This document shows positions 1,809-14,203 of a stretch of DNA of 24,000 nucleotides, in pieces. This stretch comes from Nitrospira sp. (lineage in GTDB: Bacteria > Nitrospirota > Nitrospiria > Nitrospirales > Nitrospiraceae), in contig CP126122.1 of assembly GCA_030123565.1 (NCBI GenBank), positions 2,470,800 to 2,494,799 on the forward strand, written 5' to 3'. The position numbers were made by a program, and so were the translations under genes. The notes below the pieces were generated by a model. That model worked only from the letters and a program-made list of their open reading frames with translations, was not told the DNA's origin and searched no databases. How positions within the stretch are numbered: the first letter of the stretch is position 1; each line of letters opens with the position of its first letter.

Positions 1809-1967
1809 TCAGCGTGTATCGCTCCCGACGGCGGTCGGAGCGGCATCTTCTTTGGTCGGAAGCGCCGGAACTGCGAGGACCGGTGTGGCTGAGGCGGGAT
1901 TCTGGGGAAAGGGGAGTTCCAGCAGCGCATAGGGATTCACCCGGGCGCCGTTCGCCTTCATTCCCCA
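1809..1967 (-). pseudogene. orphan 3' fragment (last ~52 codons) of the M23 peptidase gene found intact at 8607-9620
   Basis: Translation WGMKANGARVNPYALLELPFPQNPASATPVLAVPALPTKEDAAPTAVGSDTR matches the C-terminus of the 8607-9620 protein except for the penultimate residue. No upstream catalytic domain is present; the reading frame runs into the CRISPR flank. Confidence 0.85.
1817..1967. repeat. left copy of the 151-bp direct repeat bracketing the CRISPR-Cas island
   Basis: Manual alignment shows 150/151 identity to 8615-8765. The single mismatch is 1875 g versus 8673 a, which is synonymous in the peptidase frame. Confidence 0.9.
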
Positions 1968-2005
1968 AATGACGCAACCCGGCTCCCGTCCCCCATCATC
2001 GGAAC

Positions 2006-2706
2006 CTTTCACTCTAGCCTTTCCTCTGGGCGGGACTTACAATTGACTGCTCCACTTGTAGGCACGAGTGGATAAATGCTTTCACTCTAGCCTTTCCTCT
2101 GGGCGGGACTTACAATCGATATGCGGCGCGGCATTGTTGAGCAGGTACATGCTTTCACTCTAGCCTTTCCTCTGGGCGGGACTTACAATGCGGTTACGAT
2201 AGGCATAGTCAGACCCTCCTCTTATTCTTTCACTCTAGCCTTTCCTCTGGGCGGGACTTACAATCGAAGAGTCCGTACTGAGAAGAATGCAACTCTACAC
2301 TTTCACTCTAGCCTTTCCTCTGGGCGGGACTTACAATTGTTCCTGCTGGTTTCTCTCATGCCGATCATGGCACCTTTCACTCTAGCCTTTCCTCTGGGCG
2401 GGACTTACAATTCCAGACCCGCACCATGACGGTCGTCAATGCGACGCTCTTTCACTCTAGCCTTTCCTCTGGGCGGGACTTACAATCCGAAGGCCGTTGC
2501 CAATGGTGTAGACAAATTGATGGCTTTCACTCTAGCCTTTCCTCTGGGCGGGACTTACAATCGAGATTTAAAATTGCGGCGGGAGGCGCGCAACACTTTC
2601 ACTCTAGCCTTTCCTCTGGGCGGGACTTACAATGAAGGCCAGAAACAGAACGTGCTGGCACAACGGCACTTTCACTCTAGCCTTTCCTCTGGGCGGGACT
2701 TACAAT
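2006..2706 (+). CRISPR. CRISPR array: 10 identical 38-bp repeats CTTTCACTCTAGCCTTTCCTCTGGGCGGGACTTACAAT and 9 unique spacers of 34-37 bp
   Basis: Repeat starts are 2006, 2079, 2152, 2227, 2300, 2374, 2449, 2524, 2596 and 2669. Spacer lengths are 35, 35, 37, 35, 36, 37, 37, 34 and 35. The + orientation is inferred from the anti-repeat at 8224-8236 and from the TACAAT at each repeat's 3' end. Confidence 0.97.
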
Positions 2707-2869
2707 CCCGCCCAGAAGGCCATGGAAGAATTAAGGTTTGACAGCCCCAAGCAGGGTGTTTCTTCGAAAAGTTTCTACCTGCATGCCAAGTGCCTTGGTA
2801 TGAGAAGTTTTCGAGTTCGACCACCTCAAAACCGTACTGCTCACCAATCGTTTCCAGCTCGCCTTGATT

Positions 2870-3484
2870 TTAGAATACGTCTCCGCAGAAGTTTCGGTAT
2901 TCGCACTGGGTGCACCGTGCTCGGACCGGAGTTGGATTAGGAAATCGCTGCATCATCACGAGGATGCGCACTTGTTTCATACAGGAATGAACTTGCTCTT
3001 TGAGCAATTCATTCAGTTCAACCTCGACAAGCTCCTCATTGTCACTAAGCATCACGAATCCAACCGAGCAGGGCCGCAGAAAATGCTGCTCTGCAAGCAG
3101 ACCATAGGCACAAAGTTGTAACTTCCAGTTCTCGGCCAACTTGCTGCCGCTGGCCTTGAATTCAACGACACCTATCCTGTCTGGAGATTCAAGAATCAGA
3201 TCAACCTTACCGATCATCCCTAACGACTCAGCGAAGATTTCCAAGCCGAAATGTCGAATCGCCTCCTGGAAACCATATCGGCTCAGCATCCGTCTCGGCT
3301 CCAAACGCTCGAATCGCTCCTCCTGCTGGTGACCGCGCTGCATAAGAAAGGTCGCCGGCGGACGCACTGGCATAACCCAGTGGTAATAGACGATGCGCGG
3401 GCAGTACAGAAACTGCTTCAGATCATTCACGCTCAACACTGGTTCAGATACCTGGACTACCGATTGGTCTGCAGCCAACGTCAT
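2870..3484 (-). CDS. cas4: Cas4 (RecB-like exonuclease with a 4-Cys Fe-S cluster)
   Basis: 204 aa with an N-terminal Cys (FLYCPRIVYY) and the nuclease motif GKVDLILE...VVEFKAS. The C-terminal CTQCEYRNFC supplies the remaining three Cys. It lies 3 nt downstream of cas2. Confidence 0.9.
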   Translation of the reverse strand: MTLAADQSVVQVSEPVLSVNDLKQFLYCPRIVYYHWVMPVRPPATFLMQRGHQQEERFERLEPRRMLSRYGFQEAIRHFGLEIFAESLGMIGKVDLILESPDRIGVVEFKASGSKLAENWKLQLCAYGLLAEQHFLRPCSVGFVMLSDNEELVEVELNELLKEQVHSCMKQVRILVMMQRFPNPTPVRARCTQCEYRNFCGDVF

Positions 3485-3487
3485 GAT

Positions 3488-3829
3488 CTAGAACCTTTGA
3501 ATCGTCGGTTTGTCTGCCCCCGGCTCCGGCCAAGTCCTGCGCGTGTCTTGGTCGCCCTCTTCCTCAGACTGTTGTTGGAACACCAGCCGCTTGTCCAAGT
3601 CATCACTGCTGATCGGCTGAATTAATATTCTTCCCGTGGTTGAGCCGAGCAATTCTTTTAAACGCAAAAAGAGTTCTCGCCTTCGTGTCGCATCAAGACG
3701 TCCTGAGAATGCGCTAAATTGAAAACGCTCCAGGCCAAAGTCCAGGCACGCATCGCTGATACGCTGCCGAACTCGATCGTTCACAATATCGTAGACCACA
3801 AGACACAATGTGCTGACTTCACTGCTCAT
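3488..3829 (-). CDS. cas2: Cas2
   Basis: 113 aa starting LVVYDIVNDRVRQRISDACLDFGLERFQFSAFSG, a typical Cas2 ferredoxin-like N-terminus with the catalytic Asp. It lies 6 nt downstream of cas1. Confidence 0.9.
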   Translation of the reverse strand: MSSEVSTLCLVVYDIVNDRVRQRISDACLDFGLERFQFSAFSGRLDATRRRELFLRLKELLGSTTGRILIQPISSDDLDKRLVFQQQSEEEGDQDTRRTWPEPGADKPTIQRF

Positions 3830-3835
3830 AGCTTC

Positions 3836-5071
3836 TTACCACTTGAATCGGAACGGCACATATCGGGTCTGTCGGTCGGTAAGAAACGACGCCACCTGAC
3901 GCGCCTGCATCTGAATGATCGAGCGAACTTGATAATCCGCACCCTTCCACCGTTCACGACTTTCGAGCCGCCGCAGCAGCCGGTCAACCAGTATTGATCG
4001 AGTATCGGCATCAAGGCCTTTGTTCGATCCATTCGCCGGCAGTTGAAGTTGTCCCAGGCGCAAAGCGGCAATAATCGTCCTATCGACCACCGGCGCTCGG
4101 AATTCCTCTGTAAGATCAAGCACAAGACTCGGCTTGCCGGGCCGGTCGGTATGGAGATATCCGGCAAATGGTTCAAGACCTGCGTTCTGAATGGCACCCC
4201 ACACTTGGCTATAGAGGACTCCATATCCATAGTTAAGCAGCGAGTTTACGAAATCACCGGCGCCGCGGTGGGCGCGGTGGGTAAACTCAGCCTGCTTTTC
4301 AATCAGCTGTGAAATGCCTGTCCAATAGACCTTGGCCGCCTGACCTTCCAACCCCATGATCATGGAACGGGCTTTCTCCAAATCCGACCACGGCCCGCGC
4401 AGAATATCCCGTCGCGCACGGAGAATCAGCGAGACCTTCTCACGGATTACCCTAAACAGTTCCGGCTGAGTCAATCGAAGATTCTTGACGCAATATTTGA
4501 GGAGCCGAGCCTGATTGAGCAACTTACCCGAGGCAATCGCACAGGCCAACATCAGCCCTCGTCCATTTCCCAGTGCTTCAAGTTGCGCCCGCCGAATTTG
4601 TATGCTCGCAGTCAACATCGGCGACGCTATTTGAGCGACAGGCCGTCCGTCATAACCAACGATCGACACGCGAACACCACGATCTGCCAAAGCTGCGACC
4701 GCATCGACAGAGACAGAAAGCCCTGAGGATGCAAGTTGCAGCTCATGGATATGATCGAACGGAACCTGCCAGATGACTTTGCCGTCTTTTTTCTTCAAGA
4801 CCAGCCGTTCGCTCTTCTTCCCCACATACCCGCCGAATCCCGACAGACTGACCGTGAGCCCCTCGGGACTCTGCACAACCGCGAGGCCCTCTTCAAGCAC
4901 ATGCTCCTGAACACCGGGCGGGAAAAAATCGAGCATGAAGTTGGGTAACTCTTCCTCACCGGTGTAGAGATTAATTTGACGAGGAACGGGAGGAAGGAGT
5001 TCAAGAACAGGGGCAGGAGAAACAGGTGATTTGACTGGGCCTTGCGGATCAGGAAGCGGTTCCGGGGTCAT
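3836..5071 (-). CDS. cas1: Cas1 integrase with a ~65-70-aa Pro-rich N-terminal extension
   Basis: 411 aa with GLEGQAAKVYW, HRGAGDFVNSLLNYGYGVLY and LHTDRPGKPSLVLDLTEEFRAPVVD (the Cas1 E/H/D core). The ATG at 5071 is preceded by GGGGAG 8 nt upstream. It overlaps the cas9 3' end by 23 nt. Confidence 0.92.
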   Translation of the reverse strand: MTPEPLPDPQGPVKSPVSPAPVLELLPPVPRQINLYTGEEELPNFMLDFFPPGVQEHVLEEGLAVVQSPEGLTVSLSGFGGYVGKKSERLVLKKKDGKVIWQVPFDHIHELQLASSGLSVSVDAVAALADRGVRVSIVGYDGRPVAQIASPMLTASIQIRRAQLEALGNGRGLMLACAIASGKLLNQARLLKYCVKNLRLTQPELFRVIREKVSLILRARRDILRGPWSDLEKARSMIMGLEGQAAKVYWTGISQLIEKQAEFTHRAHRGAGDFVNSLLNYGYGVLYSQVWGAIQNAGLEPFAGYLHTDRPGKPSLVLDLTEEFRAPVVDRTIIAALRLGQLQLPANGSNKGLDADTRSILVDRLLRRLESRERWKGADYQVRSIIQMQARQVASFLTDRQTRYVPFRFKW

Positions 5072-8060
5072 ACTGTTTCTCCCCGTTGATTGTTTCGAAG
5101 TACTTTACTAGGGCGGCCTTACGTAGCTTGATCTCACGGCCTGCTTTAACAGATTCTTCCGTCTCAACTTGCCTTTTCAAGTTCAGACGCCGTGCTAGCG
5201 CATCGGGGATGGCCTGTTCTGGCAATAACCTAACCTCTGCCTCGTCAAACTCCTTGACTCTGTAATAGCCGGACTTGTGGCCAGCCCTTTCATCCAGCCA
5301 GACAAAGTGGTGCCGGGGCCACGTTCCGACGACTCTTGCACCATCGGGCATTGGTGGTTCAAATCGCGGGACACCAAAGGACTGGAATAGTGCCGGGTAC
5401 CGAATCGACCACTTGAGATCCTTGATTGACTCATTTTGTTTCGTCCAGAACACTATAGCCTCTGAAGCAGGCTTCAATTCGACTTTTCGTGGAGGGCCGC
5501 CTTTAGGCTCAACACGGGCAAATGTCCCACCTTTGTTCTTGCTAACCTTGACGTGCCTTATGCCTGGAAACTCAGTTGTCAAAACTTCAGACGGAAGCGA
5601 TTGTCCTTTCTTTATAGCGAGAGATTTGGCAACAGCCCTAAATCTTCTGTCCAATTCCTCTGAAGCCATACGACTCTCAGAGGGGTGGCGTCGCTCATCT
5701 GGTCCTTTGCCACTGTAAACGAAAGCGGCCAGCGGCTCGTAAAGTGTCTTCCGCTTCTCATCAAGCGCAGCAGGGTCTTGAGAAAATGTCAGATCGGCAA
5801 ATTTCCTTTTCCAACTAATGGGATATCGACCCAACACCTTCACCAGCGGCCAAGTACGCCGCTCCATATACTCAACCCAATCCGGAGCAATTTCTGGCAC
5901 GGCAAGTCCGTCCTGTTCAACGGGCTTTCCATCCCATCGAGGGCGGATCGCACGATACCGGAAGATTGTTTCGCGCCAAGTATGGGGAGGGCATGCAGCA
6001 ATGAGAGCCGCATCCTGGGCATGGTTGAACAGGTCGTTGTTGTTCTTGAGAGGAAAATTGTTTGTGCCGTCCGCCTTCTTAAGCCATGATTTCCGTAGCT
6101 GGGTCGTTGTGCGTCCATCTATTCGCTGGACAAAGGAAGATCCAGATTCGTAAGTCACCTTTGGCACAGCAACACCGCGTTTTTTGAACAGTTCCCCCAG
6201 AGCCACCACGAACTGTCGCGGCCGGGCCCCAACATGCGCCAGCGGAGTTGGATTCTCGGGATAATCAGCACCCTGAGAAAGAAGCAGCATGCGTTTCCGA
6301 TCAGAGATGCGAACAGTTTTCTTCTTCCCATCCTCGCCTTCTACTTGAACCCCTTGAGTGGTCAATACGTCGATTCGTTGAGCGAGCCTCATCCATCTAC
6401 CAGTATCAGATCCCAACCATTCGTATGGAGTTTGGTCGCCTTTCTCCGCGTTACACAATCTACATACGGGAACCAGGTTGTCCCACACATCCGGTCCACC
6501 ACGGGATTGTGGGAAAATATGATCCTTGTCTTCAGCCGGCCGTGGACTCGTCAAGTCGCAATAGAGACACGTGCCATCGGTTTCATGCTTGAGTCTCTCC
6601 ATGAACGGTTCAGGCTTTCGGAGTTTCTGTTCTCCCTTGCGGGCCTGTTCCGTTTGAGGCTTCGGCACTTCCAGAGTAATCAACTGGATAGGTCCATATC
6701 GCCAAGCTTCGTCTTCCCGTTTCTCTGGTTTGAACAGGATTTGTTCCAACCGGTGCAACACACGCTTATCGTGTTGTTCACGGCAGGGATTCGGAGCCTT
6801 CCGCACCTTCACTCGATGCCACTCACCGACCACATCCTTCATCGTCCTGCCCTGTGCTGCCTCTACGAGATGTTGACGACACAAGCTGGCTCTCCCATCA
6901 GGGGTCTCATTCCAGAGCAGATCAGAAATCTGGCGCGCCATCGATTCCTGAGCGCCTAGCTTTTTGAGGTAAGATTGAATGGCTTTGAGCTTCGGAACTG
7001 TCAGTGAAACACCCTTACGAGACCGTTTCTGTTGCAAATTACTATGTTGAGATTCACTGCTCTGTCCTCGGAGGTCCCACCACTTTCTGAACACGGAGAA
7101 CTCTTCTAGTTTCAAAGGCCTAACCACGCGGCCTTCTCGAACTCGGAGATTCCGAACTGCTGCTTCATAGGCAATCTCTCGCACCTTACTTTTCCGAGGA
7201 GTTGGTTTCCCGCACCATGCACAACCGCTCTTGAGTCGATTTTCGAAACGGGCGGGGCGCAAGATTTTGTTCAAGAGACGGCAGAGTTCTCGTTGCCAGC
7301 GCTGAATAGTGTCTTTCGAGAGATTGATTGAATTACCGAACCCATCGATAACTGAACACAAGTCAGCCGCTTTTACATCTCTGTGTTCAGCCTTGCGTGG
7401 TTCAGACTCCCGATGAAGCGCCTTCTCAAGCTCGCCAAGAAGGTCGTCCGGGGAAATCCTTTTCTTCCCGCGCACGGAATTGTCCGGGTCCTGTTGGCGG
7501 CGCTGAATCTCAGACCGAATTTGCGAAGCCAGACTATCTGGGACTCTGGATGAAAGTAGAAAATCTTTCAGCTTCACATCCGTCATATTTGCCAACTCAA
7601 TAGCGTCCCACTTATATCCTCGTTTCCGGAAGATAAGCGTGAGGGCTCGCACAAACCCTTTCGAATCCACCTTTCCTTGCTTCGCCAGATCAATCCAGGA
7701 AGGGGCATCGGCTGGGTTCTTGCCTGAAATTTGAAAGATGCCCGGTTGAACTTGAAAACGTGGATCTTTCAGCACCACGTAAGGATCTGGAAGTCTACTG
7801 TCGTTTGGCAGCTTTTGCCGCAACACCCATGAGCGTAGCCGGGCAAGACGCATCTTTTTCGCGTTACGAGTCCTTCGGCCACGACGAAGCTGCCGACGTT
7901 GCTCTAGATCTGAACCATGAAAGTCAACGTAGGTTTCCGCGTGGAGTATCTGATTGCCTTGCACAACCGAAATACCACCGGCTGATTCGCCGAAATCAAT
8001 TCCTACACGAACGGTGGGCAGGAAGGAGTTGATTCGCTCTAGAAGCCTGGGCGTCAGCAA
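5049..8060 (-). CDS. cas9: Cas9 (compact, ~1,003 aa if translated from TTG 8060; the longest ORF extends to GTG 8168)
   Basis: RuvC-I VRVGIDFGESAGG, Arg-rich bridge helix RRQLRRGRRTRNAKKMRLARLRSW, RuvC-II LITLEVPK. HNH is DKDHIFPQSRGGPDVWDNLVPVCRLCNAEKG and RuvC-III is NHAQDAALIAA. The start is uncertain: the upstream 36 codons overlap an intrinsic terminator. Confidence 0.9.
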   Translation of the reverse strand: MLTPRLLERINSFLPTVRVGIDFGESAGGISVVQGNQILHAETYVDFHGSDLEQRRQLRRGRRTRNAKKMRLARLRSWVLRQKLPNDSRLPDPYVVLKDPRFQVQPGIFQISGKNPADAPSWIDLAKQGKVDSKGFVRALTLIFRKRGYKWDAIELANMTDVKLKDFLLSSRVPDSLASQIRSEIQRRQQDPDNSVRGKKRISPDDLLGELEKALHRESEPRKAEHRDVKAADLCSVIDGFGNSINLSKDTIQRWQRELCRLLNKILRPARFENRLKSGCAWCGKPTPRKSKVREIAYEAAVRNLRVREGRVVRPLKLEEFSVFRKWWDLRGQSSESQHSNLQQKRSRKGVSLTVPKLKAIQSYLKKLGAQESMARQISDLLWNETPDGRASLCRQHLVEAAQGRTMKDVVGEWHRVKVRKAPNPCREQHDKRVLHRLEQILFKPEKREDEAWRYGPIQLITLEVPKPQTEQARKGEQKLRKPEPFMERLKHETDGTCLYCDLTSPRPAEDKDHIFPQSRGGPDVWDNLVPVCRLCNAEKGDQTPYEWLGSDTGRWMRLAQRIDVLTTQGVQVEGEDGKKKTVRISDRKRMLLLSQGADYPENPTPLAHVGARPRQFVVALGELFKKRGVAVPKVTYESGSSFVQRIDGRTTTQLRKSWLKKADGTNNFPLKNNNDLFNHAQDAALIAACPPHTWRETIFRYRAIRPRWDGKPVEQDGLAVPEIAPDWVEYMERRTWPLVKVLGRYPISWKRKFADLTFSQDPAALDEKRKTLYEPLAAFVYSGKGPDERRHPSESRMASEELDRRFRAVAKSLAIKKGQSLPSEVLTTEFPGIRHVKVSKNKGGTFARVEPKGGPPRKVELKPASEAIVFWTKQNESIKDLKWSIRYPALFQSFGVPRFEPPMPDGARVVGTWPRHHFVWLDERAGHKSGYYRVKEFDEAEVRLLPEQAIPDALARRLNLKRQVETEESVKAGREIKLRKAALVKYFETINGEKQYDPGTAS

Positions 8061-8082
8061 AATGGCACCAGGGGGTGAGGAT

Positions 8083-8120
8083 AAAAAAGGTGGCGCTCCT
8101 CGCTCGTCGAGTGCGCCACC
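8083..8120 (-). terminator. intrinsic terminator (predicted tracrRNA 3' end)
   Basis: Minus strand reads GGTGGCGC-a-CTCG-acgag-CGAG-ga-GCGCCACC followed by TTTTTT (8088-8083). Confidence 0.65.
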
Positions 8121-8236
8121 AACCCTTGCCCTTCCGGGGTCCGAGTACCGGTCTTCGGGGCCACCCACACCCTGGTTCCGATGCTGGGTTACATCGGCGA
8201 GGACTGGAGTAGCGCCTGGGCTTCTTTCACTCTAGC
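8083..8236 (-). ncRNA. tracrRNA: predicted tracrRNA (~154 nt)
   Basis: The 5' end GCUAGAGUGAAAG (8236-8224) is the exact reverse complement of repeat nt 1-13. It is followed by AAG..., a CCGAUG/CAUCGG hairpin (8197-8178) and the terminator at 8120-8083. A promoter sits at the right distance upstream. Confidence 0.55.
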
Positions 8237-8243
8237 AATGATG

Positions 8244-8272
8244 GTTATACCTCGCACGATTTCCCTATTCAA
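8244..8272 (-). promoter_or_regulatory. sigma70-like promoter for the predicted tracrRNA
   Basis: Minus strand TTGAAT (8272-8267), 17 nt, then TATAAC (8249-8244). The anti-repeat begins 7 nt downstream of the -10 element. Confidence 0.5.
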
Positions 8273-8606
8273 GCCTTATCACCTAGGGAAGACCTAATAA
8301 TAGCTCCATCTGCCGAAATCCCTTGAGCAGGTCTTTGACTGAAGTGATGTTACGTTCCAGAATTTGTAATAGGTTCGATCTGAGCGGGCGACCCCCGGCT
8401 TCACTGAAGGCATAGGGGCTCTCGTAACTTTACGAGGAAAACAAGAGGGACCTACCTGAATCTGCGAGGAAATTCCAAATGAATTCCGCCCAGCAAGACC
8501 CGAAATGGTCGCACCGAACCGTGAAAGGCGGATGACTGCTCAGGTGCTGATTTCGTTCTGAACTTTTTTGGACACAACAGTTCGAGAGGGCTTGACGATG
8601 GTCTGA

Positions 8607-9620
8607 TTACCGGCTATCGCTCCCGACGGCGGTCGGAGCGGCATCTTCTTTGGTCGGAAGCGCCGGAACTGCAAGGACCGGTGTGGCTGAGGCGGGATTC
8701 TGGGGAAAGGGGAGTTCCAGCAGCGCATAGGGATTCACCCGGGCGCCGTTCGCCTTCATTCCCCAGTGGAGATGGGGGCCGGTGGCGCGGCCTGTGGCAC
8801 CGACCTTGCCGATGACCTGGCCGGCCTTGATCAAGTCGCCCTCCTTGACCAGCACGTCTGAGAGGTGGAAATACATCGAGTAGAGGCCGAGGCCATGGTC
8901 CAGATAGACGCCCCTGCCGGAAAAGATATGGTCCACGGTGAGGCGGACGACCCCGTCGTTGCTGGCCATGACGGCCGTGCCGAGCGGCGCGCCGATATCT
9001 TCGCCGTTGTGGGGATTCCTGGCCTGGCCGTTCATGATGCGGACGCTGCCGAAGATGCCGGTGCGTTTTCCATGGACCGGTTCGATGAACCCCGCCTGCC
9101 ACAACCGCATGGCGGATTCTTCGGCCAAGGCCTTACGGACCTGCTCCTGCTCGGCCTTCCAGCGCGCCGCTGCCTTCTCATCGAGATCGACCTTGTCTTT
9201 CGGCAAGGTGAGATGTTCGACGGCGAATTTCTCCTTCGCCACGAAGACCTGATAGGTGAAGTGCCGCATCTGCTCGCCCAGTTGCGCATCGATCGTCAAT
9301 TCATGCGTGCCCGGCTCATCCTGCAGGTCGATCCCCAGCAACCCGATATACCCGGCTTCGCCGGCGGAAGGGTTCGGAAACAACGTGACGGTACGACCAA
9401 GGAATCGGCCCTTCACGGTGGTGGCGTCCCTGAGGTTCGGCACCGTGATGACGAGGACCTGCCCCTGTTTCCCGCTGAACCGTCCGTCGGCGCCTCGCTG
9501 CGTGGGTGCCGAGTTGGGGAACAGCTCGACCGGAAACACGCTGGCCAGCAGGACGATGGAAATGATAAAGAGGCGATCCAGCGACGACATGGTCTTGTCC
9601 AGCCCCGCAGCCCGTTTCAT
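8607..9620 (-). CDS. secreted M23/LytM-family peptidoglycan endopeptidase (catalytic motifs intact)
   Basis: 337 aa with a hydrophobic N-terminal signal-like segment, HNGEDIG (HxxxD) and GPHLHWG (HxH). Its ATG overlaps the pafA stop as ATGA (9617-9620). An alternative start lies at 9590. Confidence 0.88.
   Translation of the reverse strand: MKRAAGLDKTMSSLDRLFIISIVLLASVFPVELFPNSAPTQRGADGRFSGKQGQVLVITVPNLRDATTVKGRFLGRTVTLFPNPSAGEAGYIGLLGIDLQDEPGTHELTIDAQLGEQMRHFTYQVFVAKEKFAVEHLTLPKDKVDLDEKAAARWKAEQEQVRKALAEESAMRLWQAGFIEPVHGKRTGIFGSVRIMNGQARNPHNGEDIGAPLGTAVMASNDGVVRLTVDHIFSGRGVYLDHGLGLYSMYFHLSDVLVKEGDLIKAGQVIGKVGATGRATGPHLHWGMKANGARVNPYALLELPFPQNPASATPVLAVPALPTKEDAAPTAVGSDSR
8615..8765. repeat. 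right copy of the 151-bp direct repeat (it forms the 3' end of the intact M23 peptidase gene)
   Basis: 150/151 identity to 1817-1967. Confidence 0.9.
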
Positions 9621-10993
9621 CGATAAAATCGGACGCCGGAAACCTGTGCCAACAATTCTTCGACCCGCCGGTTCACTGCGCTGAACGGATCCATACAGAG
9701 GATCGTCTCTTCCCAGTACCCGTTCAACTTCAGATAGGTCCAGTCTACCGTATAGGAGCGGTTCTTGGCACGCGCAAATCGAATGAAGTCGCCGCGGACC
9801 TTTGCGCGGGTGGTCTGGGGCGGCACCGACATGGCCCGTTGCACGGCTTCTTCCTCCACCACCCGAACGGCCATCCCCCGATTCTCCATCAAATAATACA
9901 GTCCGCGGGTGCGTTTCACGTCATGAAATTGCAAATCCAACAGGAAGACCCTGGGATCATCCCAGCCGCAGTCTTTCTTGTCGATGTACGATTGGATGAG
10001 GTGCTTCTTCATCACCCAATCGACCTCGTGCACCAATTGCATCGGGTCCTCTTCGAGACGATCCAGTACCCAGACCCACTTGGTCAGGACGTCGTCCAGG
10101 ATCGGATCATGGTCCTGCGCCGCCAGAAATTCTTTCGCGCGCTTGACGTAGACCCGCTGGATTTCGATGGCGGTCATCTGCCGACCGTCGTCCAACTTTA
10201 CTTTTTTATTGAGTGTGGGGTCGCGGGAAATCTCGCGGATGGCCTTGACGGGATCTTCGAGTTCCATACCGGTGACGGAAAAACCTGCTTCGGCCATCGA
10301 GAGCACCAGGGTCGCGGTCCCGACCTTCAGATAGGTGGCATACTCCGACATGTTCGAGTCGCCCACGATGATGTGGAGCCGCCGGTATTTCTCCGCGTCC
10401 GCATGGGGTTCATCGCGGGTATTGATGATGCTCCGTGACGACGTAGTGGAGGACGAGGTCTTTTCATGGATATGTTGGGCGCGCTGCGAGATGAAGTATT
10501 GCGGCTTGCCCGAGACCTTCAACACCTTGCCGGCGCCGGAGTAGATTTGTCGCGTCACGAAAAACGGAATGAGCTGCTCGGTGACTTTCCAGAAATCGAC
10601 GTCCCGGCGCATGAGGTAGTTCTCATGGCAACCGTAGGTATTGCCGAGCGAGTCGGTGTTGTTCTTGAAAATATAGATTTCACCGGACAGGCCTTCTTCC
10701 CGCAGGCGCTCTTCGGCCGCCGGCAAACAGGCCTCCAGCAATCGCTCACCGGCCTTGTCGTGCACGACCAGATCGAGGATGTTGTCGCATTCCGGCGTGG
10801 AATACTCGGGGTGGCAGCCGGTGTCCTGGTAGAATCGCGCCCCGTTGACCAGGAATGCGTTGGACGGCCAACTGTTGGGAATCAGCCCCTCGAAGATATA
10901 GCCCAACACCTTCTCCATCGGGAGATAGATCTTCCCGTTCGGGGAGAAGATCAGGCCATATTCGTTTTCCAGGCCGAAAATTCGCTGTTGCAT
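9617..10993 (-). CDS. pafA: Pup/UBact-protein ligase PafA homolog
   Basis: MQQRIFGLENEYG start, HPEYSTPE, NTYGCHENYL and RDEPHADAEKYRRLHIIVGDSNM. It lacks the Dop-specific loop and lies downstream of prcA as in canonical clusters. The start at 10993 has GGAG 9 nt upstream; the ORF extends to 11053. Confidence 0.82.
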   Translation of the reverse strand: MQQRIFGLENEYGLIFSPNGKIYLPMEKVLGYIFEGLIPNSWPSNAFLVNGARFYQDTGCHPEYSTPECDNILDLVVHDKAGERLLEACLPAAEERLREEGLSGEIYIFKNNTDSLGNTYGCHENYLMRRDVDFWKVTEQLIPFFVTRQIYSGAGKVLKVSGKPQYFISQRAQHIHEKTSSSTTSSRSIINTRDEPHADAEKYRRLHIIVGDSNMSEYATYLKVGTATLVLSMAEAGFSVTGMELEDPVKAIREISRDPTLNKKVKLDDGRQMTAIEIQRVYVKRAKEFLAAQDHDPILDDVLTKWVWVLDRLEEDPMQLVHEVDWVMKKHLIQSYIDKKDCGWDDPRVFLLDLQFHDVKRTRGLYYLMENRGMAVRVVEEEAVQRAMSVPPQTTRAKVRGDFIRFARAKNRSYTVDWTYLKLNGYWEETILCMDPFSAVNRRVEELLAQVSGVRFYR

Positions 10994-11024
10994 GGGTCTG
11001 CGCTCCATCACGACCGTCTGTATC

Positions 11025-11053
11025 AGAATACACCGTGACAGGCGAGGCTTCAA
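11025..11053 (-). promoter_or_regulatory. possible internal promoter for pafA and the M23 peptidase gene
   Basis: Minus strand TTGAAG (11053-11048), 17 nt, then TATTCT (11030-11025), in the 170-nt prcA-pafA gap. Confidence 0.35.
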
Positions 11054-11163
11054 CCGACGGCGTGATTGCGTCCGGAACAGAGAGGGAAAGGGGAGGCGCC
11101 GCTACAACCATATTCCGGTTGCAGCGAATCCCATCGGTGACGTAGCTCGTTCGAGAAGAGGGA

Positions 11164-11847
11164 CTAGGCGAAGAGTTGTGCGATATCGGTGCCGCTCAAC
11201 CGTCTGAACTTCCGCCCGAGGCGGCTCCTGTCCAACACGGCCGCTTCGAGATTTTCGGAGGGAATTTTTTGATTCGCGACCTGCTCCAGGGCGGCAAGGC
11301 ACCGTCTGAGACCGTCCTTGAGTGTCGGAGGCTGCGCCGTGGCATGTTCCCGCAGGTATTGCTGCACGGCTTCCGATCGCCCGCCGATGACCGCAAAACT
11401 CTTCTCATCGACGATGCTCCCGTCGAACGAGATGCGATAGATCTCATTCGCCTGGCCCTGGGCCCCGACCTGCACCACGAGGATTTCCACTTCCAGCGGT
11501 TTGACATCCTGGCTGAACGCCGTCCCCAAACTCTGCGAATAGGCGTTGGACAGGGTACGGGCGCTCACGTCTTCACGGCTGTACATGTAGCCGGTCAGGT
11601 CGGCATGGCGGATGCCCGCCTTCCTGAGGTGCTCGAACTCGCTGTACTTGCCGGCCCCGGCAAAGGCGATGCGGTCGTACACTTCGGAGACTTTGTGCAA
11701 CGACGAGCTGGGGTTGTCGGCCGCCAGCAGAATACCGTCGACATACTCCAGGGCAATAATCGAGCGTCCCTTGGCGATGCCCTTCTTGGCATACTCCGCC
11801 TTGTCCTGCATCATTTGCTCGGGCGAGACGTAGTAGGGCAACGGCAT
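11164..11847 (-). CDS. prcA: 20S proteasome alpha subunit
   Basis: 227 aa starting MPLPYYVSPEQMMQDKAEYAKKGIAKGRS, with the Ntn-hydrolase proteasome fold pattern. It lies 3 nt downstream of prcB. Confidence 0.9.
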   Translation of the reverse strand: MPLPYYVSPEQMMQDKAEYAKKGIAKGRSIIALEYVDGILLAADNPSSSLHKVSEVYDRIAFAGAGKYSEFEHLRKAGIRHADLTGYMYSREDVSARTLSNAYSQSLGTAFSQDVKPLEVEILVVQVGAQGQANEIYRISFDGSIVDEKSFAVIGGRSEAVQQYLREHATAQPPTLKDGLRRCLAALEQVANQKIPSENLEAAVLDRSRLGRKFRRLSGTDIAQLFA

Positions 11848-11850
11848 CGA

Positions 11851-12675
11851 CTAGGATCTCCTTCGCTCCGCGATCATGGTTTCGTACAGGGCCCGGACCC
11901 GCTCTTCCGGCACATCGACAAGGCCGATGTTGCTGACGATCTTCGCCGTCGGATAGATGCCGCGAACCAGATCGGGTCCCCCGGTTCCCACATCCTCATC
12001 GGCCGCGTTGTACAACGCCAACAGCCCGACCCGGAGCGCCTCCTCTTCCGAAAGCCCCGGCCGGTAATGTTCGCGCATGGTGTTGCGGGCGTCCTTGCCG
12101 CCGGACCCGATGGAGTGGTGATCCGATTCTTCGTAGCGGCCGCCCGTGATGTCGTACTTGAAAATACGGCCTTCCTTCCGCTTCAGATCGTACCCGACAT
12201 AGAGCGGCATGACGACCAGTCCCTGGAACACCATGGGCAGATTGGCCTTCACCATCTGCCCCAGCTTGTTGGCCTTGCCTTCGCAGGAGAGTTGCACTCC
12301 CTCCAGCTTCTCATAATGTTCGAGCTCGGTCTGAAACAGCTTGGCCATCTCGATGCAGGGTCCGGCAGCCCCGGCGATCGCCATGGCGGAATACTCGTCG
12401 ATGCGAAACACCTTCTCGATACGACGGTCGGCGATTTGAAAACCTTCCGTGGCCCGGCGGTCTCCCGCAATGATCGCTCCATCGCGATACTTCAGCGCCA
12501 ACACCGTCGTCCCCTGCGGCACCGGGATGGTTCCGATGCGGCTCACATCCTGGGACAAGGACAGGGGCCGAGCGGCGATCTCGTTCGAGCAGGGCGTCAA
12601 CTCCGGATAGTGGCGTGTGAGGAAGTCGAAGAAACTGGACCCCTCGTGATGTGGAAGGAATGGACCCTGTTTCAT
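11851..12675 (-). CDS. prcB: 20S proteasome beta subunit (with ~56-aa propeptide)
   Basis: 274 aa. The propeptide ends ...PVPQG and is followed by TTVLALKYRDGAIIAGDRRAT (catalytic Thr1). Confidence 0.9.
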   Translation of the reverse strand: MKQGPFLPHHEGSSFFDFLTRHYPELTPCSNEIAARPLSLSQDVSRIGTIPVPQGTTVLALKYRDGAIIAGDRRATEGFQIADRRIEKVFRIDEYSAMAIAGAAGPCIEMAKLFQTELEHYEKLEGVQLSCEGKANKLGQMVKANLPMVFQGLVVMPLYVGYDLKRKEGRIFKYDITGGRYEESDHHSIGSGGKDARNTMREHYRPGLSEEEALRVGLLALYNAADEDVGTGGPDLVRGIYPTAKIVSNIGLVDVPEERVRALYETMIAERRRS

Positions 12676-12688
12676 GTGAACGTCGTGG

Positions 12689-14188
12689 TTAGGTCGAAAG
12701 TTTTGCGAGCAGCGCGGCGGCGGTCTCCGCTTGAGCCAGGAGTTCCCCTGTCAGAGATTCGGTCCCGCGCAGGGGTTCCATCAAGGGAATCCGCTTGATC
12801 TTGTTCTGCCCGATATCGAACAACACGGACGTCCAACTTGCCCCGTAGACGGCGCTCGGGTACTTCTTGACACACTGGCCCCGGAAATAGGCCCGCGTTC
12901 CGACCGGCGGAGTGAACTCCGCCCTCGCGATCTCATGGTCCAGCACCACGCGCTCGATCATATGGCTGCGTTCCAGCGTATAGTACAGCCCTCGGTCGGG
13001 GCGGACGTCGTGATATTGGAGGTCCATCAAACGGACGCGCGAATCGTCCCAGCCGCAGGATTTACGCTCCATATAGGATTCGATCAAATACCGTTTGGCC
13101 ACCCAGTCCAATTCCCGCACCAACGACCGCGGGTCCCGTTCCAACCGGTCGAGCACATCCTCCCAGCGCACCAACACGTCTTTCGTGACCTGGCTGAGTT
13201 CATGGCAGGCATAAAAATCCTGGGCGGCCTTGAGGTAGGCACGCTGCACCGCGATCGCGGTCGTGGCGGTTCCATCGGCCAACTTGAGGGATTCCTTGAG
13301 CTGCACATCCCGGGATACCTGCTTGATTGCGCCGACCGGATCCGCCAGGCTGATCCGGGGCAGGTCCGCTCCGGCTTCAAGCAAGTCCAACACCATCGAC
13401 AAGGCGCCCACCTTGAGGTAGGTCGAGAGTTCCGCCATGTTGGCATCGCCGACGATCACATGGAGCCGACGATATTTCCCCGAGTCGGAATGCGGCTCAT
13501 CGCGCGTGTTGATGATCGGCCGCCTGACCATGGTGTTGAGATCGACGAGGGTTTCGAAGAAGTCGGCCCGCTGCGAAATCTGGTACTCGACGGGGTTGGT
13601 CTGATTCTCCGCCCCCACCTTGCCCGATCCGGCATAAATGAGCCGCGTGACGAGGAAGGGAGTGAGCACCTGCGTGATCCGCTCGAACGACACCGCGCGC
13701 GACACCAGGTAGTTCTCGTGGTATCCGTAGCTGTTCCCCTTGCCGTCTGAATTGTTTTTGTACAGGACGAACTGCTCGCGGCCACGCGCCTTGGTGATGC
13801 CTTCCAACGCCTGCGCAATGATGCGCTCGCCGACCCGTTCAAACGCCACCACTTCCCTGGCATTGGTACATTCCGGAGTCGAATACTCGGGGTGGGCACC
13901 ATCGACATAGAGCCGGCCACCGTTGGCCAGTACCTTGTTGAGCTGCCGATTGTAATCGGGTCCCGGCCGTTCCCGTTCTCCGTCCACCTCGAACCCGCGC
14001 GCGTCCAGCAAGGGATTTTCGTTTTCGTAATCCCATACCGCGTGGGGCGCCGGCAGGTTCGGATAGTACCCGATCAGATGGATTGAATTGGCGACCGGAT
14101 CCGCTGCGTTGGGATCGCGACTGGCGATACCGAATTCCGTCTCCGTGCCGAGGACACGGGACAGGTTGTGCGAATGAGATTCTTTCAT
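12689..14188 (-). CDS. dop: depupylase/deamidase Dop homolog
   Basis: 499 aa with LGTETEFG, AHPEYSTPE, NSYGYHENYL and RDEPHSDSGKYRRLHVIVGDANM. It carries an extra loop (DARGFEVDGERERPGPDYNRQLNK) that is absent from the pafA paralog. It lies directly downstream of mpa. Confidence 0.82.
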   Translation of the reverse strand: MKESHSHNLSRVLGTETEFGIASRDPNAADPVANSIHLIGYYPNLPAPHAVWDYENENPLLDARGFEVDGERERPGPDYNRQLNKVLANGGRLYVDGAHPEYSTPECTNAREVVAFERVGERIIAQALEGITKARGREQFVLYKNNSDGKGNSYGYHENYLVSRAVSFERITQVLTPFLVTRLIYAGSGKVGAENQTNPVEYQISQRADFFETLVDLNTMVRRPIINTRDEPHSDSGKYRRLHVIVGDANMAELSTYLKVGALSMVLDLLEAGADLPRISLADPVGAIKQVSRDVQLKESLKLADGTATTAIAVQRAYLKAAQDFYACHELSQVTKDVLVRWEDVLDRLERDPRSLVRELDWVAKRYLIESYMERKSCGWDDSRVRLMDLQYHDVRPDRGLYYTLERSHMIERVVLDHEIARAEFTPPVGTRAYFRGQCVKKYPSAVYGASWTSVLFDIGQNKIKRIPLMEPLRGTESLTGELLAQAETAAALLAKLST

Positions 14189-14203
14189 GGAAGGTCGAGC
14201 GTG

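What the first reader, a model, noticed from the sequence alone, without database searches (positions are those of the whole stretch)
2006..8272. Mosaic type II CRISPR-Cas: compact ~1,000-aa Cas9 coupled to a cas1-cas2-cas4 adaptation module
The large ORF carries every Cas9 hallmark in order. These are RuvC-I VGIDFGESAGG, an Arg-rich bridge helix, RuvC-II ITLEVPK, HNH DKDHIFPQ...CRLCNAEKG and RuvC-III NHAQDAALIAA. It is followed by cas1, cas2 and cas4 in a tight operon. cas4 is the signature of subtype II-B, whose Cas9 proteins are usually much larger (Francisella-type, roughly 1,400-1,600 aa). A size near 1,000 aa is typical of II-C, which lacks cas4. Such II-B/II-C hybrids have only been noted for a few loci, for example the ARMAN-1 archaeal system. 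The 38-bp repeat and the variable 34-37-bp spacers also differ from the fixed 30-bp spacers of II-A and II-C. All catalytic residues look intact, so this is a candidate compact nuclease from an unusual lineage.
Basis: partly seen in the sequence, partly recalled or inferred. Interest (0 to 1): 0.75.

Follow-up and report, generated by a model that had tools for sequence, protein, structure and literature searches.

The report
Type II-D CRISPR-Cas9 island in Nitrospira
This is a complete, apparently intact CRISPR-Cas9 immune locus of the already described subtype II-D (formerly "II-C2"), a close relative of a published and biochemically tested enzyme, so it is a new member of a known family, not a rare hybrid.

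Summary
On the minus strand lie tracrRNA, cas9, cas1, cas2 and cas4, followed by ten identical 38-nt repeats with nine 34-37-nt spacers. All RuvC and HNH catalytic residues are intact.

The interpretation as a rare II-B/II-C mosaic does not hold.
- Cas9 passes NCBI's Cas9d model (598 bits, cutoff 375).
- It belongs to a family of at least 112 sequence clusters, mostly 950-1,100 aa.
- At least 14 of 25 testable relatives carry the same cas1-cas2-cas4 module, with 37-38-nt repeats and 33-38-nt spacers.
- The 2025 CRISPR classification places exactly this kind of locus, including the ARMAN archaeal Cas9s, in subtype II-D.

The closest characterised relative is Cas9c2-MG33-34, also from Nitrospira. 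It is about 75% identical over its first 395 aa. Its published active sgRNA scaffold is 92% identical to the tracrRNA found here, and its PAM is nGG.

Corrections:
- The real cas9 is 1,003 aa with a TTG start at 8060. The 1,039-aa ORF runs through the tracrRNA terminator.
- crRNAs are read from the plus strand, towards the cas genes.

Extras:
- The locus is a 6.6-kb low-GC island bracketed by 151-bp direct repeats.
- A covarying leader-repeat hairpin sits at the cas4 end of the array.
- The Cas9 C-terminal domain appears swapped relative to a sister strain.

The parts
1817..1967 (.). Direct-repeat copy A. This is an orphaned duplicate of the last ~150 bp of the M23-peptidase gene and marks the outer edge of the island beyond the array.
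   Evidence: 150/151 identical to 8615-8765. It is contiguous with the kinase-side flank of the empty site in L072.
2006..2706 (+). CRISPR array of ten identical 38-nt repeats (CTTTCACTCTAGCCTTTCCTCTGGGCGGGACTTACAAT) and nine spacers of 34-37 nt. The crRNA sense is the plus strand.
   Evidence: Repeat structure. Sense is fixed by the anti-repeat and by the published MG33-34 sgRNA, N20-CUUUCACUCUAGC.
2688..2716 (+). Leader-repeat junction hairpin. The 3' half of the cas-proximal repeat (TCTGGGCGGG) pairs with the first 10 nt of the leader (CCCGCCCAGA). The loop ACTTACAAT contains the -10-like hexamer.
   Evidence: Present in 14/14 related loci at -14 to -27 kcal/mol, with different stem sequences in different lineages.
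2707..2869 (+). Leader, the conserved array-flanking region between the array and cas4. It is the inferred site of spacer integration.
   Evidence: The cas-proximal flank is conserved across most of the 13 other downstream-array loci examined, while the distal flank is not. Degenerate terminal repeats lie at the distal end in L029 and L032.
2870..3484 (-). cas4, 204 aa. The four Fe-S cysteines and the D...ExK motif are present.
   Evidence: TIGR00372 at 92 bits (cutoff 65) and PADLOC Cas4_II at 157 bits. The motifs were read from the translation.
3488..3829 (-). cas2, 113 aa.
   Evidence: PF09827 and TIGR01573, both above cutoff.
3836..5071 (-). cas1, 411 aa. The Cas1 domain covers aa 76-411, and the gene overlaps the cas9 3' end by 23 nt.
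   Evidence: TIGR00287 at 214 bits. The type II-A/C Cas1 model TIGR03639 reaches only 63 bits (cutoff 120). PADLOC Cas1_II scores 239 bits.
5049..8060 (-). cas9 (Cas9d, MG33-like), 1,003 aa with a TTG start.
   Evidence: NF049971 CRISPR_Cas9d at 598 bits (cutoff 375), covering profile positions 2-969 of 986. P0001 is 100% identical and 1,003 aa. AlphaFold model has pLDDT 80, and its best PDB matches are II-D Cas9 structures.
8083..8237 (-). tracrRNA, about 155 nt. The 5' end is inferred to within about 3 nt from the promoter; the 3' end is the T-run of the terminator.
   Evidence: 92% identical (110/119) to the scaffold of the published active MG33-34 sgRNA. The structure is conserved across 27 loci: 86% of cells are paired, against 37-45% when the pairing is slid out of register. 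18 of 29 pairs show compensatory changes.
8224..8236 (-). Anti-repeat GCUAGAGUGAAAG, pairing with the first 13 nt of the plus-strand repeat.
   Evidence: The same motif lies 164-200 nt upstream of cas9 in most relatives. It covaries with each locus's own repeat in L002, L008 and L017.
8083..8120 (-). Intrinsic terminator of the tracrRNA (GGTGGCGC...GCGCCACC followed by T6), ending 22 nt before the cas9 start codon.
   Evidence: Read from the sequence. The terminal hairpin covaries across the family (helix 6).
8244..8272 (-). tracrRNA promoter: -35 TTGAAT (8272-8267), 17-nt spacer, -10 TATAAC (8249-8244).
   Evidence: A -35 CTTGAC and a -10 TAnnnT sit at fixed distance from the anti-repeat in 26 of 33 related loci.
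8615..8765 (.). Direct-repeat copy B, the 3' part of the intact M23-peptidase gene (8607-9620, minus strand). It marks the tracrRNA-side edge of the island.

Best explanation
The locus is a complete and probably functional subtype II-D CRISPR-Cas9 system of the roughly 1,000-aa 'MG33-like' branch (formerly II-C2). It sits on a 6.6-kb island in a Nitrospira chromosome.

Shown here:
- A sigma-70 promoter drives a tracrRNA of about 155 nt. It begins almost exactly at a 13-nt anti-repeat and ends at a terminator 22 nt before cas9.
- cas9 (1,003 aa, with RuvC and HNH residues intact), cas1, cas2 and cas4 follow as one tightly packed minus-strand gene string.
- The array lies downstream of cas4. Its guide-coding sense is the opposite (plus) strand, so crRNA is spacer followed by CUUUCACUCUAGC...

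Inferred:
- The crRNA:tracrRNA duplex loads Cas9. Cas9 then makes double-strand cuts next to a 3' nGG PAM, as its relatives MG33-34, MG33-31 and MG33-3 do.
- The conserved leader is on the cas4 side, so Cas1-Cas2-Cas4 adds new spacers at the repeat that is last in transcription.
- Each repeat ends in a -10-like TACAAT that may start its own crRNA, as in type II-C.
- With only 13 bp of duplex and a tracrRNA that starts at the anti-repeat, little or no RNase III trimming would be needed.
- cas9 expression probably depends on read-through of the tracrRNA terminator, because no room for a promoter remains.
For: - Typing: NF049971 Cas9d scores 598 bits (cutoff 375). The generic Cas9 model TIGR01865 and the IscB model are both below cutoff. 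The best solved relatives by sequence profile are II-D Cas9 structures 9lgi, 8w2s, 8zq9/9auf and 9k32. 9k32 and 9lgi are also among the three best matches by fold.
- Family: 112 clusters, mostly 950-1,100 aa. There are 47 representatives at E<=1e-30 among 1.84 billion proteins.
- Gene content: cas1-cas2-cas4 is present in at least 14 of 25 testable loci.
- tracrRNA: anti-repeat, conserved promoter, covarying structure and 92% identity to the active MG33-34 sgRNA scaffold.
- Nearest characterised relative: MG33-34 protein is 74.7% identical over 395 aa and comes from a Nitrospira genome.
- Array polarity: array orientation across 25 loci, and a conserved leader plus degenerate distal repeats.
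- Repeat-embedded promoter: repeats end in TAYAAT, TATAAT or TAAAAT in 15/15 loci of the main clade. The II-C precedent is in PMC12080349 and PMC13187072.
- Classification: PMC12669027.
Against: - No protospacer was found, so neither the PAM nor in vivo activity is confirmed. Eight IMG/VR scans gave only 20-22-nt partial matches, none next to GG.
- The Cas9 C-terminal (putative PAM-interacting) region is only 51-52% identical to close relatives of MG33-34. The nGG PAM is therefore an extrapolation.
- No transcript data exist. Repeat-embedded promoters, the tracrRNA 5' end and terminator read-through are all inferences.
- The repeat has a -10 hexamer but only a weak -35 and no TG extension.
- No formal Cas9 or Cas1 phylogeny was run.
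Confidence: 0.9

Rival explanations
1. One reading: a recent mosaic in which a II-C-type compact Cas9 was joined to a II-B-type cas1-cas2-cas4 adaptation module, forming a rare hybrid.
For: - cas4 otherwise marks II-B, and a size near 1,000 aa resembles II-C.
- The Cas1 is not the II-A/C 'NMENI' type. It resembles the Cas4-associated Cas1s of types I and V.
- The array polarity and repeat ends look II-C-like.
Against: - The Cas9 is not a II-C Cas9. It passes the Cas9d model and fails the general Cas9 model. Its best solved relatives are II-D structures.
- The same gene combination recurs throughout the clade, from Nitrospira to Micrarchaeota, with Cas1 identity tracking Cas9 identity. That indicates long co-inheritance.
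- The 2025 classification reports that II-D Cas1 proteins are monophyletic.
Confidence: 0.05
2. The locus is a decaying or non-immune remnant. For example, it could be a Cas9 kept for regulation, with no ongoing adaptation or interference.
For: - No spacer matched a virus convincingly.
- Eight of 25 related loci have lost the adaptation genes and three retain only cas4 remnants.
- In this window the leader-repeat hairpin is not followed by the T-tract seen in most relatives.
Against: - All four cas ORFs are full length with catalytic motifs intact.
- The ten repeats are identical.
- The tracrRNA keeps its promoter, anti-repeat, conserved helices and terminator.
- A lack of spacer matches is usual for environmental lineages.
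Confidence: 0.05
3. It is a transposon-associated IscB/OMEGA-type nuclease with its guide RNA, and not a CRISPR effector.
For: - There are weak hits to the IscB model and to the RRXRR domain.
- The guide-scaffold RNA lies directly upstream of the nuclease gene on the same strand, as omega RNA does for IscB.
Against: - The IscB model scores 51 bits against a cutoff of 175.
- A 10-repeat array, cas1-cas2-cas4 and a separate anti-repeat are all present.
- No TnpA or IS ends are present in the island.
Confidence: 0.01

Closest known systems
Cas9c2-MG33 family, especially MG33-34 (Aliaga Goltsman et al. 2022, Nat Commun, PMC9755519)
   Same: - The size class is the same (MG33-34 is 1,010 aa and the family spans 900-1,050 aa).
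- The N-terminal 395 aa are 74.7% identical.
- The sgRNA scaffold is 92% identical, with the same 13-nt repeat:anti-repeat pairing.
- MG33-34 was binned to Nitrospira, the same genus as this window.
- L031 in my set carries the MG33-31 scaffold exactly.
   Different: - This is a different ortholog, about 69-75% identical.
- The C-terminal roughly 245 aa are only about 51% identical to MG33-34-like proteins. The PAM (nGG for MG33-34) may therefore differ.
- The paper says adaptation genes were seen only in a few cases. Here the full cas1-cas2-cas4 module is present.
Subtype II-D as defined in the 2025 CRISPR-Cas classification (PMC12669027), including the ARMAN/DPANN archaeal Cas9 loci (former II-C2)
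   Same: - It has a Cas9d-type effector, a cas1-cas2-cas4 adaptation module, a tracrRNA and an adjacent array.
- ARMAN-4 Cas9 is 31% identical over aa 8-876.
- A Micrarchaeota locus (L022) has the same four genes.
   Different: - The host is bacterial (Nitrospira).
- In the archaeal locus L022 the adaptation genes are on the opposite strand to cas9.
Compact Cas9d enzymes with solved structures (MG34-1 in 8zq9/9auf, a type II-D Cas9 in 9lgi, NbaCas9 in 9k32)
   Same: - These are the best sequence-profile matches, and 9k32 and 9lgi are among the three best fold matches in the PDB.
- They share the RuvC-HNH core, an Arg-rich helix and CxxC zinc motifs.
- They likewise depend on a large structured guide scaffold.
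   Different: - Those proteins are about 735-760 aa and only distantly related (E 1e-32 to 1e-27, about 16-17% identity in the structural alignment).
- This protein is about 250 aa longer.
- No structure of the roughly 1,000-aa branch turned up in either PDB search.
Type II-C arrays (Neisseria meningitidis, Campylobacter jejuni)
   Same: - The array lies downstream of the cas genes and is transcribed towards them.
- Repeats end in a -10-like TAnAAT.
- The acquisition end is the transcriptionally last repeat (PMC12080349, PMC13187072).
   Different: - II-C has no cas4 and uses the NMENI-type Cas1. Here that Cas1 model is below cutoff.
- The effector clade differs.
- Promoter activity of these repeats has not been tested.
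Type II-B (Francisella/Legionella type)
   Same: It has cas4 in the adaptation module and longer spacers than II-A and II-C.

Membership tests
Subtype II-D CRISPR-Cas (2025 classification) | The effector belongs to the Cas9d clade. | tested here: met
   NCBIfam NF049971 CRISPR_Cas9d scores 598 bits against a cutoff of 375, nearly full length. The best PDB relatives are II-D Cas9s. A formal tree was not built.
Subtype II-D CRISPR-Cas (2025 classification) | The adaptation module consists of cas1, cas2 and cas4. | tested here: met
   All three lie directly downstream of cas9, and each is above its curated cutoff.
Subtype II-D CRISPR-Cas (2025 classification) | Cas1 falls in the monophyletic II-D Cas1 branch. 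| not tested
   Only indirect evidence is available. This Cas1 is 44-80% identical to the Cas1s next to related Cas9s and 33% identical to the Micrarchaeota one. It is not the II-A/C NMENI type.
Subtype II-D CRISPR-Cas (2025 classification) | A tracrRNA is encoded in the locus. | tested here: met
   Anti-repeat, promoter, covarying structure and terminator are all present. The scaffold is 92% identical to a published active sgRNA scaffold.
Cas9c2-MG33 family (PMC9755519) | Length 900-1,050 aa and sequence similarity to MG33 members. | tested here: met
   The protein is 1,003 aa and 74.7% identical to MG33-34 over the 395 aa available.
Cas9c2-MG33 family (PMC9755519) | The family-specific guide RNA scaffold. 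| tested here: met
   110 of 119 positions are identical to the MG33-34 scaffold and 93 of 115 to MG33-31.
Cas9c2-MG33 family (PMC9755519) | RNA-guided dsDNA cleavage with a 3' nGG PAM. | not testable with these tools
   Catalytic residues are intact. No protospacer was found from which to read a PAM.
Type II-C | cas9-cas1-cas2 only, with no cas4. | tested here: not met
   cas4 is present and intact.
Type II-C | Type II (NMENI) Cas1. | tested here: not met
   TIGR03639 scores 63 bits against a cutoff of 120.
Type II-C | Each repeat carries a promoter, and spacers are acquired at the transcriptionally last repeat. | tested here: inconclusive
   The repeat ends in TACAAT. The leader is on the downstream side and degenerate repeats are at the upstream end in relatives. 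There are no transcript data.
Type II-B | A large Francisella/Legionella-type Cas9. | tested here: not met
   The protein is 1,003 aa. It passes the Cas9d model, and the generic Cas9 model is below cutoff.
IscB / OMEGA | An IscB-type protein without a CRISPR array or adaptation genes. | tested here: not met
   NF040563 scores 51 bits against a cutoff of 175. An array and cas1-cas2-cas4 are present.

The most novel reading that the evidence does not exclude
The bacterial roughly 1,000-aa branch of subtype II-D may run its array 'backwards', as type II-C does. In that reading each repeat ends in its own -10 box, and new spacers enter at the transcriptionally last repeat.

It would add a feature not described for II-C or II-D in the papers I read. 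The first 10-14 nt of the leader are the reverse complement of the inner part of the repeat. Only the newest repeat can then fold into a strong hairpin with the leader, and the hairpin re-forms after every acquisition. In most relatives a T-tract follows, so the hairpin would act as a terminator shielding cas4 from convergent transcription, or alternatively as the landmark for the integrase.

The papers I read describe II-C as the one exception in array polarity, so this would extend that exception to a second subtype.
Probability: 0.35. Interest if true: 0.45.

Novelty: new member of a known kind. Interest (0 to 1): 0.25.

Why it matters
As a nuclease it adds one more ortholog to a family that has already been mined and tested for genome editing. 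Its practical value is limited to a possibly different PAM, given the divergent C-terminal domain.

Biologically it gives a clean natural example of a complete II-D locus in a closed 4.6-Mb Nitrospira chromosome (nitrite oxidisers important in nitrification). Occupied, empty and variant versions of the same chromosomal site are all available. That set could be used to study three things:
- how whole class 2 loci move between strains;
- how PAM-interacting domains are exchanged;
- how array polarity and the leader are organised in subtype II-D, which the papers I consulted do not describe.

Tried and rejected
- Rfam scan of the whole window at gathering thresholds found no family. The tracrRNA matches no Rfam family.
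- A generic inverted-repeat search did not find the anti-repeat, because only 13 nt pair. An RNA duplex scan found it.
- Eight IMG/VR scans used the 3' 20-22 nt of spacers 1-7 and 9 (spacer 8 was not searched). Six found nothing.
  - Spacer 5 hit L068 and spacer 6 hit L069 and L070.
  - These matches cover only the 20-22 nt searched, the rest of each spacer does not match, and the 3' flanks are AGC or GCC, not nGG.
  - I treat them as chance or non-informative.
- The 15-nt similarity between the array-distal flank (1992-2006) and a tracrRNA hairpin (8188-8174) suggested a self-targeting or autoregulatory guide. It is absent from nine other loci, including the sister Nitrospira locus, so I dropped it.
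- Looking up exact Cas4 copies to compare arrays between near-identical strains, and so read the acquisition polarity directly, gave only one extra contig. That contig breaks at the array.
- The promoter and terminator scanner missed both the tracrRNA promoter (its -10 is TATAAC) and the terminator (16-nt loop). Both were read by eye and supported by family conservation.
Full report
**What is in the sequence**

The ORF list and repeat finders show the following on the minus strand:
- a large ORF at 5049-8168;
- ORFs at 3836-5071, 3488-3829 and 2870-3484;
- ten identical 38-nt repeats (plus-strand reading CTTTCACTCTAGCCTTTCCTCTGGGCGGGACTTACAAT) at 2006-2706, with nine spacers of 34-37 nt.

Pfam, NCBIfam and PADLOC identify the three smaller ORFs as cas1, cas2 and cas4, all above curated cutoffs.

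**Typing of the effector**

The large protein passes NCBI's curated model NF049971, 'type II CRISPR RNA-guided endonuclease Cas9d'. It scores 598 bits against a cutoff of 375, aligned almost end to end (profile positions 2-969 of 986). The general Cas9 model TIGR01865 (78 bits, cutoff 100) and the IscB model (51 bits, cutoff 175) both fail.

Against solved structures, by single sequence and by family profile, the best hits are the compact II-D Cas9s 9lgi, 8w2s, 8zq9/9auf, 8w2z and 9k32 (E 1e-32 to 1e-27). Type II-C Cas9s come next.

An AlphaFold model built on 31 relatives has mean pLDDT 80 and pTM 0.61. It matches Cas9 structures throughout. The II-D structure 9k32 is the best match and 9lgi is third.

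In the alignment of 31 relatives, E464, H514, N537, H680 and D683 are invariant. The RuvC-I Asp is present in 27 of the 28 relatives that have a residue at that position.

**The family is populated and shares this gene content**

- A word-indexed search found 112 clusters (90% identity level) at 30-100% identity, nearly all 944-1,104 aa. They come from Nitrospirota, Terriglobia/Acidobacteriota, Binatia, Deltaproteobacteria, Lindowbacteria and others.
- An exhaustive HMMER pass over 1.84 billion representatives found 47 representatives at E<=1e-30. Below that there is a sharp drop to bare HNH-domain hits.
- Scans of genome and metagenome contigs returned 66 related loci. These include ARMAN-4, ARMAN-5, a Nanoarchaeota and a Micrarchaeota locus at about 31% identity.
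- Of 25 loci with a complete cas9 and enough flank, 14 carry cas1-cas2-cas4, three keep a cas4 remnant and eight have none. Several further loci on shorter contigs also have the full module.
- Repeats are 36-38 nt and spacers 33-38 nt across the family.

**Literature**

The 2025 update of the CRISPR-Cas classification created subtype II-D. It merged the former II-C2 variant (small archaeal Cas9s) with the smallest Cas9d proteins. The paper states that these loci share a cas1-cas2-cas4 module with monophyletic Cas1 (PMC12669027).

Aliaga Goltsman et al. 2022 described the 'Cas9c2-MG33' family (900-1,050 aa) and showed RNA-guided dsDNA cleavage (PMC9755519). Their Supplementary Data 3 lists active sgRNAs.

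- The MG33-34 scaffold is 110/119 (92%) identical to the RNA encoded upstream of cas9 here. One of my related loci (L031) contains the MG33-31 scaffold exactly.
- MG33-34 is 1,010 aa and was binned to Nitrospira (Ca. N. inopinata).
- It is 74.7% identical to this Cas9 over the 395 residues held in the supplement.
- All three tested MG33 enzymes use nGG.

**tracrRNA and the corrected cas9 start**

An RNA-duplex scan found a 13-nt anti-repeat (GCTAGAGTGAAAG, 8236-8224, minus strand). It is complementary to the first 13 nt of the plus-strand repeat.

Reading the minus strand shows a strong intrinsic terminator, GGTGGCGC...GCGCCACC followed by T6, at 8120-8083. It lies inside the N-terminal extension of the 1,039-aa ORF. 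The real start is therefore the TTG at 8060, giving 1,003 aa. This agrees with the JGI gene call that is 100% identical (P0001) and with the ATG starts of relatives.

The anti-repeat motif sits 164-200 nt upstream of cas9 in most related loci. It changes together with the locus's own repeat in L002, L008 and L017.

A -35 CTTGAC and a -10 TAnnnT lie at fixed distance upstream in 26 of 33 loci. In this window they are TTGAAT, a 17-nt spacer and TATAAC. This places the transcription start within a few nucleotides of the anti-repeat.

The scaffold structure has a closing GCCC/GGGC helix, three internal helices and the terminal hairpin. Across 27 loci, 86% of cells are paired, against 37-45% for slid controls. 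Eighteen of 29 pairs show changes on both sides, and 0 of 500 shuffles reach the observed values. This structure was partly derived from the window sequence, which favours it somewhat.

**Array polarity and leader**

The anti-repeat and the published sgRNA fix the crRNA sense as the plus strand. The array is thus transcribed towards cas4, convergent with the cas genes.

- In every related locus with a downstream array the sense is opposite to cas9. In the four loci with arrays upstream of cas9 it is the same as cas9. In both arrangements the array is read towards the cas genes.
- The cas4-side flank of the array is conserved across most of the 13 other downstream-array loci examined, while the far flank is not. 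In L029 and L032 the far terminal repeat is degenerate.
- By the usual logic, the leader and acquisition end are therefore on the cas4 side.
- Repeats of the main clade end in TACAAT, TATAAT or TAAAAT in 15 of 15 loci.

This is the arrangement described for type II-C, where each repeat has its own promoter and spacers enter at the last repeat (PMC12080349 and PMC13187072). Promoter activity here is an inference.

**Leader-repeat hairpin**

At the leader junction, the first 10-14 nt of the leader are the reverse complement of the inner part of the repeat. In the window this is TCTGGGCGGG-ACTTACAAT-CCCGCCCAGA at 2688-2716.

The hairpin is predicted in 14 of 14 loci (-14 to -27 kcal/mol), with different stem sequences in different lineages. 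In about ten loci it is followed by a T-rich tract, though not in the two Nitrospira loci.

It could terminate crRNA-sense transcription before cas4, or mark the integration site. I could not distinguish between these.

**Genomic setting**

- The Dop/PafA2 homologue in the window is 93% identical to proteins of Nitrospira sp. MAGs and 78% identical to that of N. japonica.
- The source is a 4.62-Mb JGI contig.
- A second Nitrospira contig from the same sample has the same neighbourhood with an empty site, M23 peptidase followed by 85 nt and then the sensor kinase (L072). A third has a divergent version of the locus at the same place (L071).
- In the window the island (1968-8614; 6,647 bp; GC 52.4% against 59.9% for the rest) is bracketed by a 151-bp direct repeat, 150/151 identical. 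The repeat is derived from the 3' end of the M23 gene. No integrase or transposase is present.
- Between the two occupied sites, Cas9 residues 1-758 are 86.8% identical. Residues 759-1003 are only 35.5% identical and include a 47-aa indel. This suggests exchange of the C-terminal, presumably PAM-interacting, domain.

**Verdict**

The 'rare mosaic' reading is superseded. The locus is a new ortholog within subtype II-D, closest to the experimentally characterised MG33-34.

The parts that may be new are secondary. They are the II-C-like array polarity in II-D, the covarying leader-repeat hairpin, the island structure and the domain swap.

Noticed in passing
window 1817-1967 and 8615-8765; island 1968-8614; L072 and L071 for comparison: The whole CRISPR-Cas locus is a 6,647-bp low-GC island (52.4% against 59.9%). 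It is bracketed by a 151-bp direct repeat (150/151 identical) made from the 3' end of the M23-peptidase gene. A sister Nitrospira contig from the same sample has the site empty, and another has a divergent locus there without the duplication. No integrase is present.
   Followed up: partly
window 5049-5786 (Cas9 aa 759-1003) versus L071 12276-12862: Against the syntenic Cas9 of a closely related Nitrospira, residues 1-758 are 86.8% identical. The C-terminal 245 residues are only 35.5% identical, with a 47-aa indel. This looks like a swapped PAM-interacting domain. The same region is also the most divergent against MG33-34-like proteins (about 51%).
   Followed up: partly
window 2688-2716 and the equivalent junctions in L002, L003, L010, L017, L029, L032, L033, L039, L047, L053, L056, L063, L071: The start of the leader is the reverse complement of the inner part of the repeat. 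Only the leader-adjacent repeat can therefore form a strong hairpin. The stem sequence covaries between lineages, and a T-tract follows in most loci but not in the Nitrospira ones.
   Followed up: partly
window 8061-8168: The mechanical 1,039-aa ORF (GTG at 8168) over-extends cas9 by 36 codons through the tracrRNA terminator. Only 22 nt separate the terminator T-run from the TTG start. cas9 expression probably relies on terminator read-through, which echoes the arrangement of omega RNA immediately upstream of iscB.
   Followed up: partly
window 1992-2006 (+) versus 8188-8174 (-): The 15 nt just before the first repeat, which would form the guide of an 'extraneous' crRNA, match a tracrRNA hairpin segment at 14/15. 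This exceeds all 200 shuffles. It is absent from nine other loci, including the sister Nitrospira locus, so it is probably chance.
   Followed up: yes
window spacers 5 (2338-2373) and 6 (2412-2448); L068, L069, L070: The 3'-terminal 20-22 nt of two spacers match IMG/VR viral contigs exactly, while the 5' parts do not match at all. The flanks lack GG. These are probably chance matches, but it is odd that the 22-nt match covers exactly the part expected to serve as the guide.
   Followed up: partly
window 9617-15973 and beyond: The neighbourhood is a Pup-proteasome cluster (proteasome ATPase, Dop, two proteasome subunits, PafA). It also holds thiS-thiG-thiE genes, M23 and S41 peptidase genes, and PAS/GAF sensor kinases. 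This is consistent with a Nitrospira chromosome.
   Followed up: partly
L003, L004, L045 (cas4 remnants); L007, L009, L010, L012, L016, L031, L032, L034 (no adaptation genes): About a third of related loci keep cas9, tracrRNA and an array but have lost cas1-cas2-cas4. Three retain only the 3' end of cas4, which points to repeated decay of the adaptation module.
   Followed up: no
L007, L018, L050, L008: A sub-clade has the array upstream of cas9. Its repeats contain an internal palindrome (for example CAGCCGTGCGCACGGCTG) and lack the TAYAAT end. This suggests a different mode of crRNA production.
   Followed up: no
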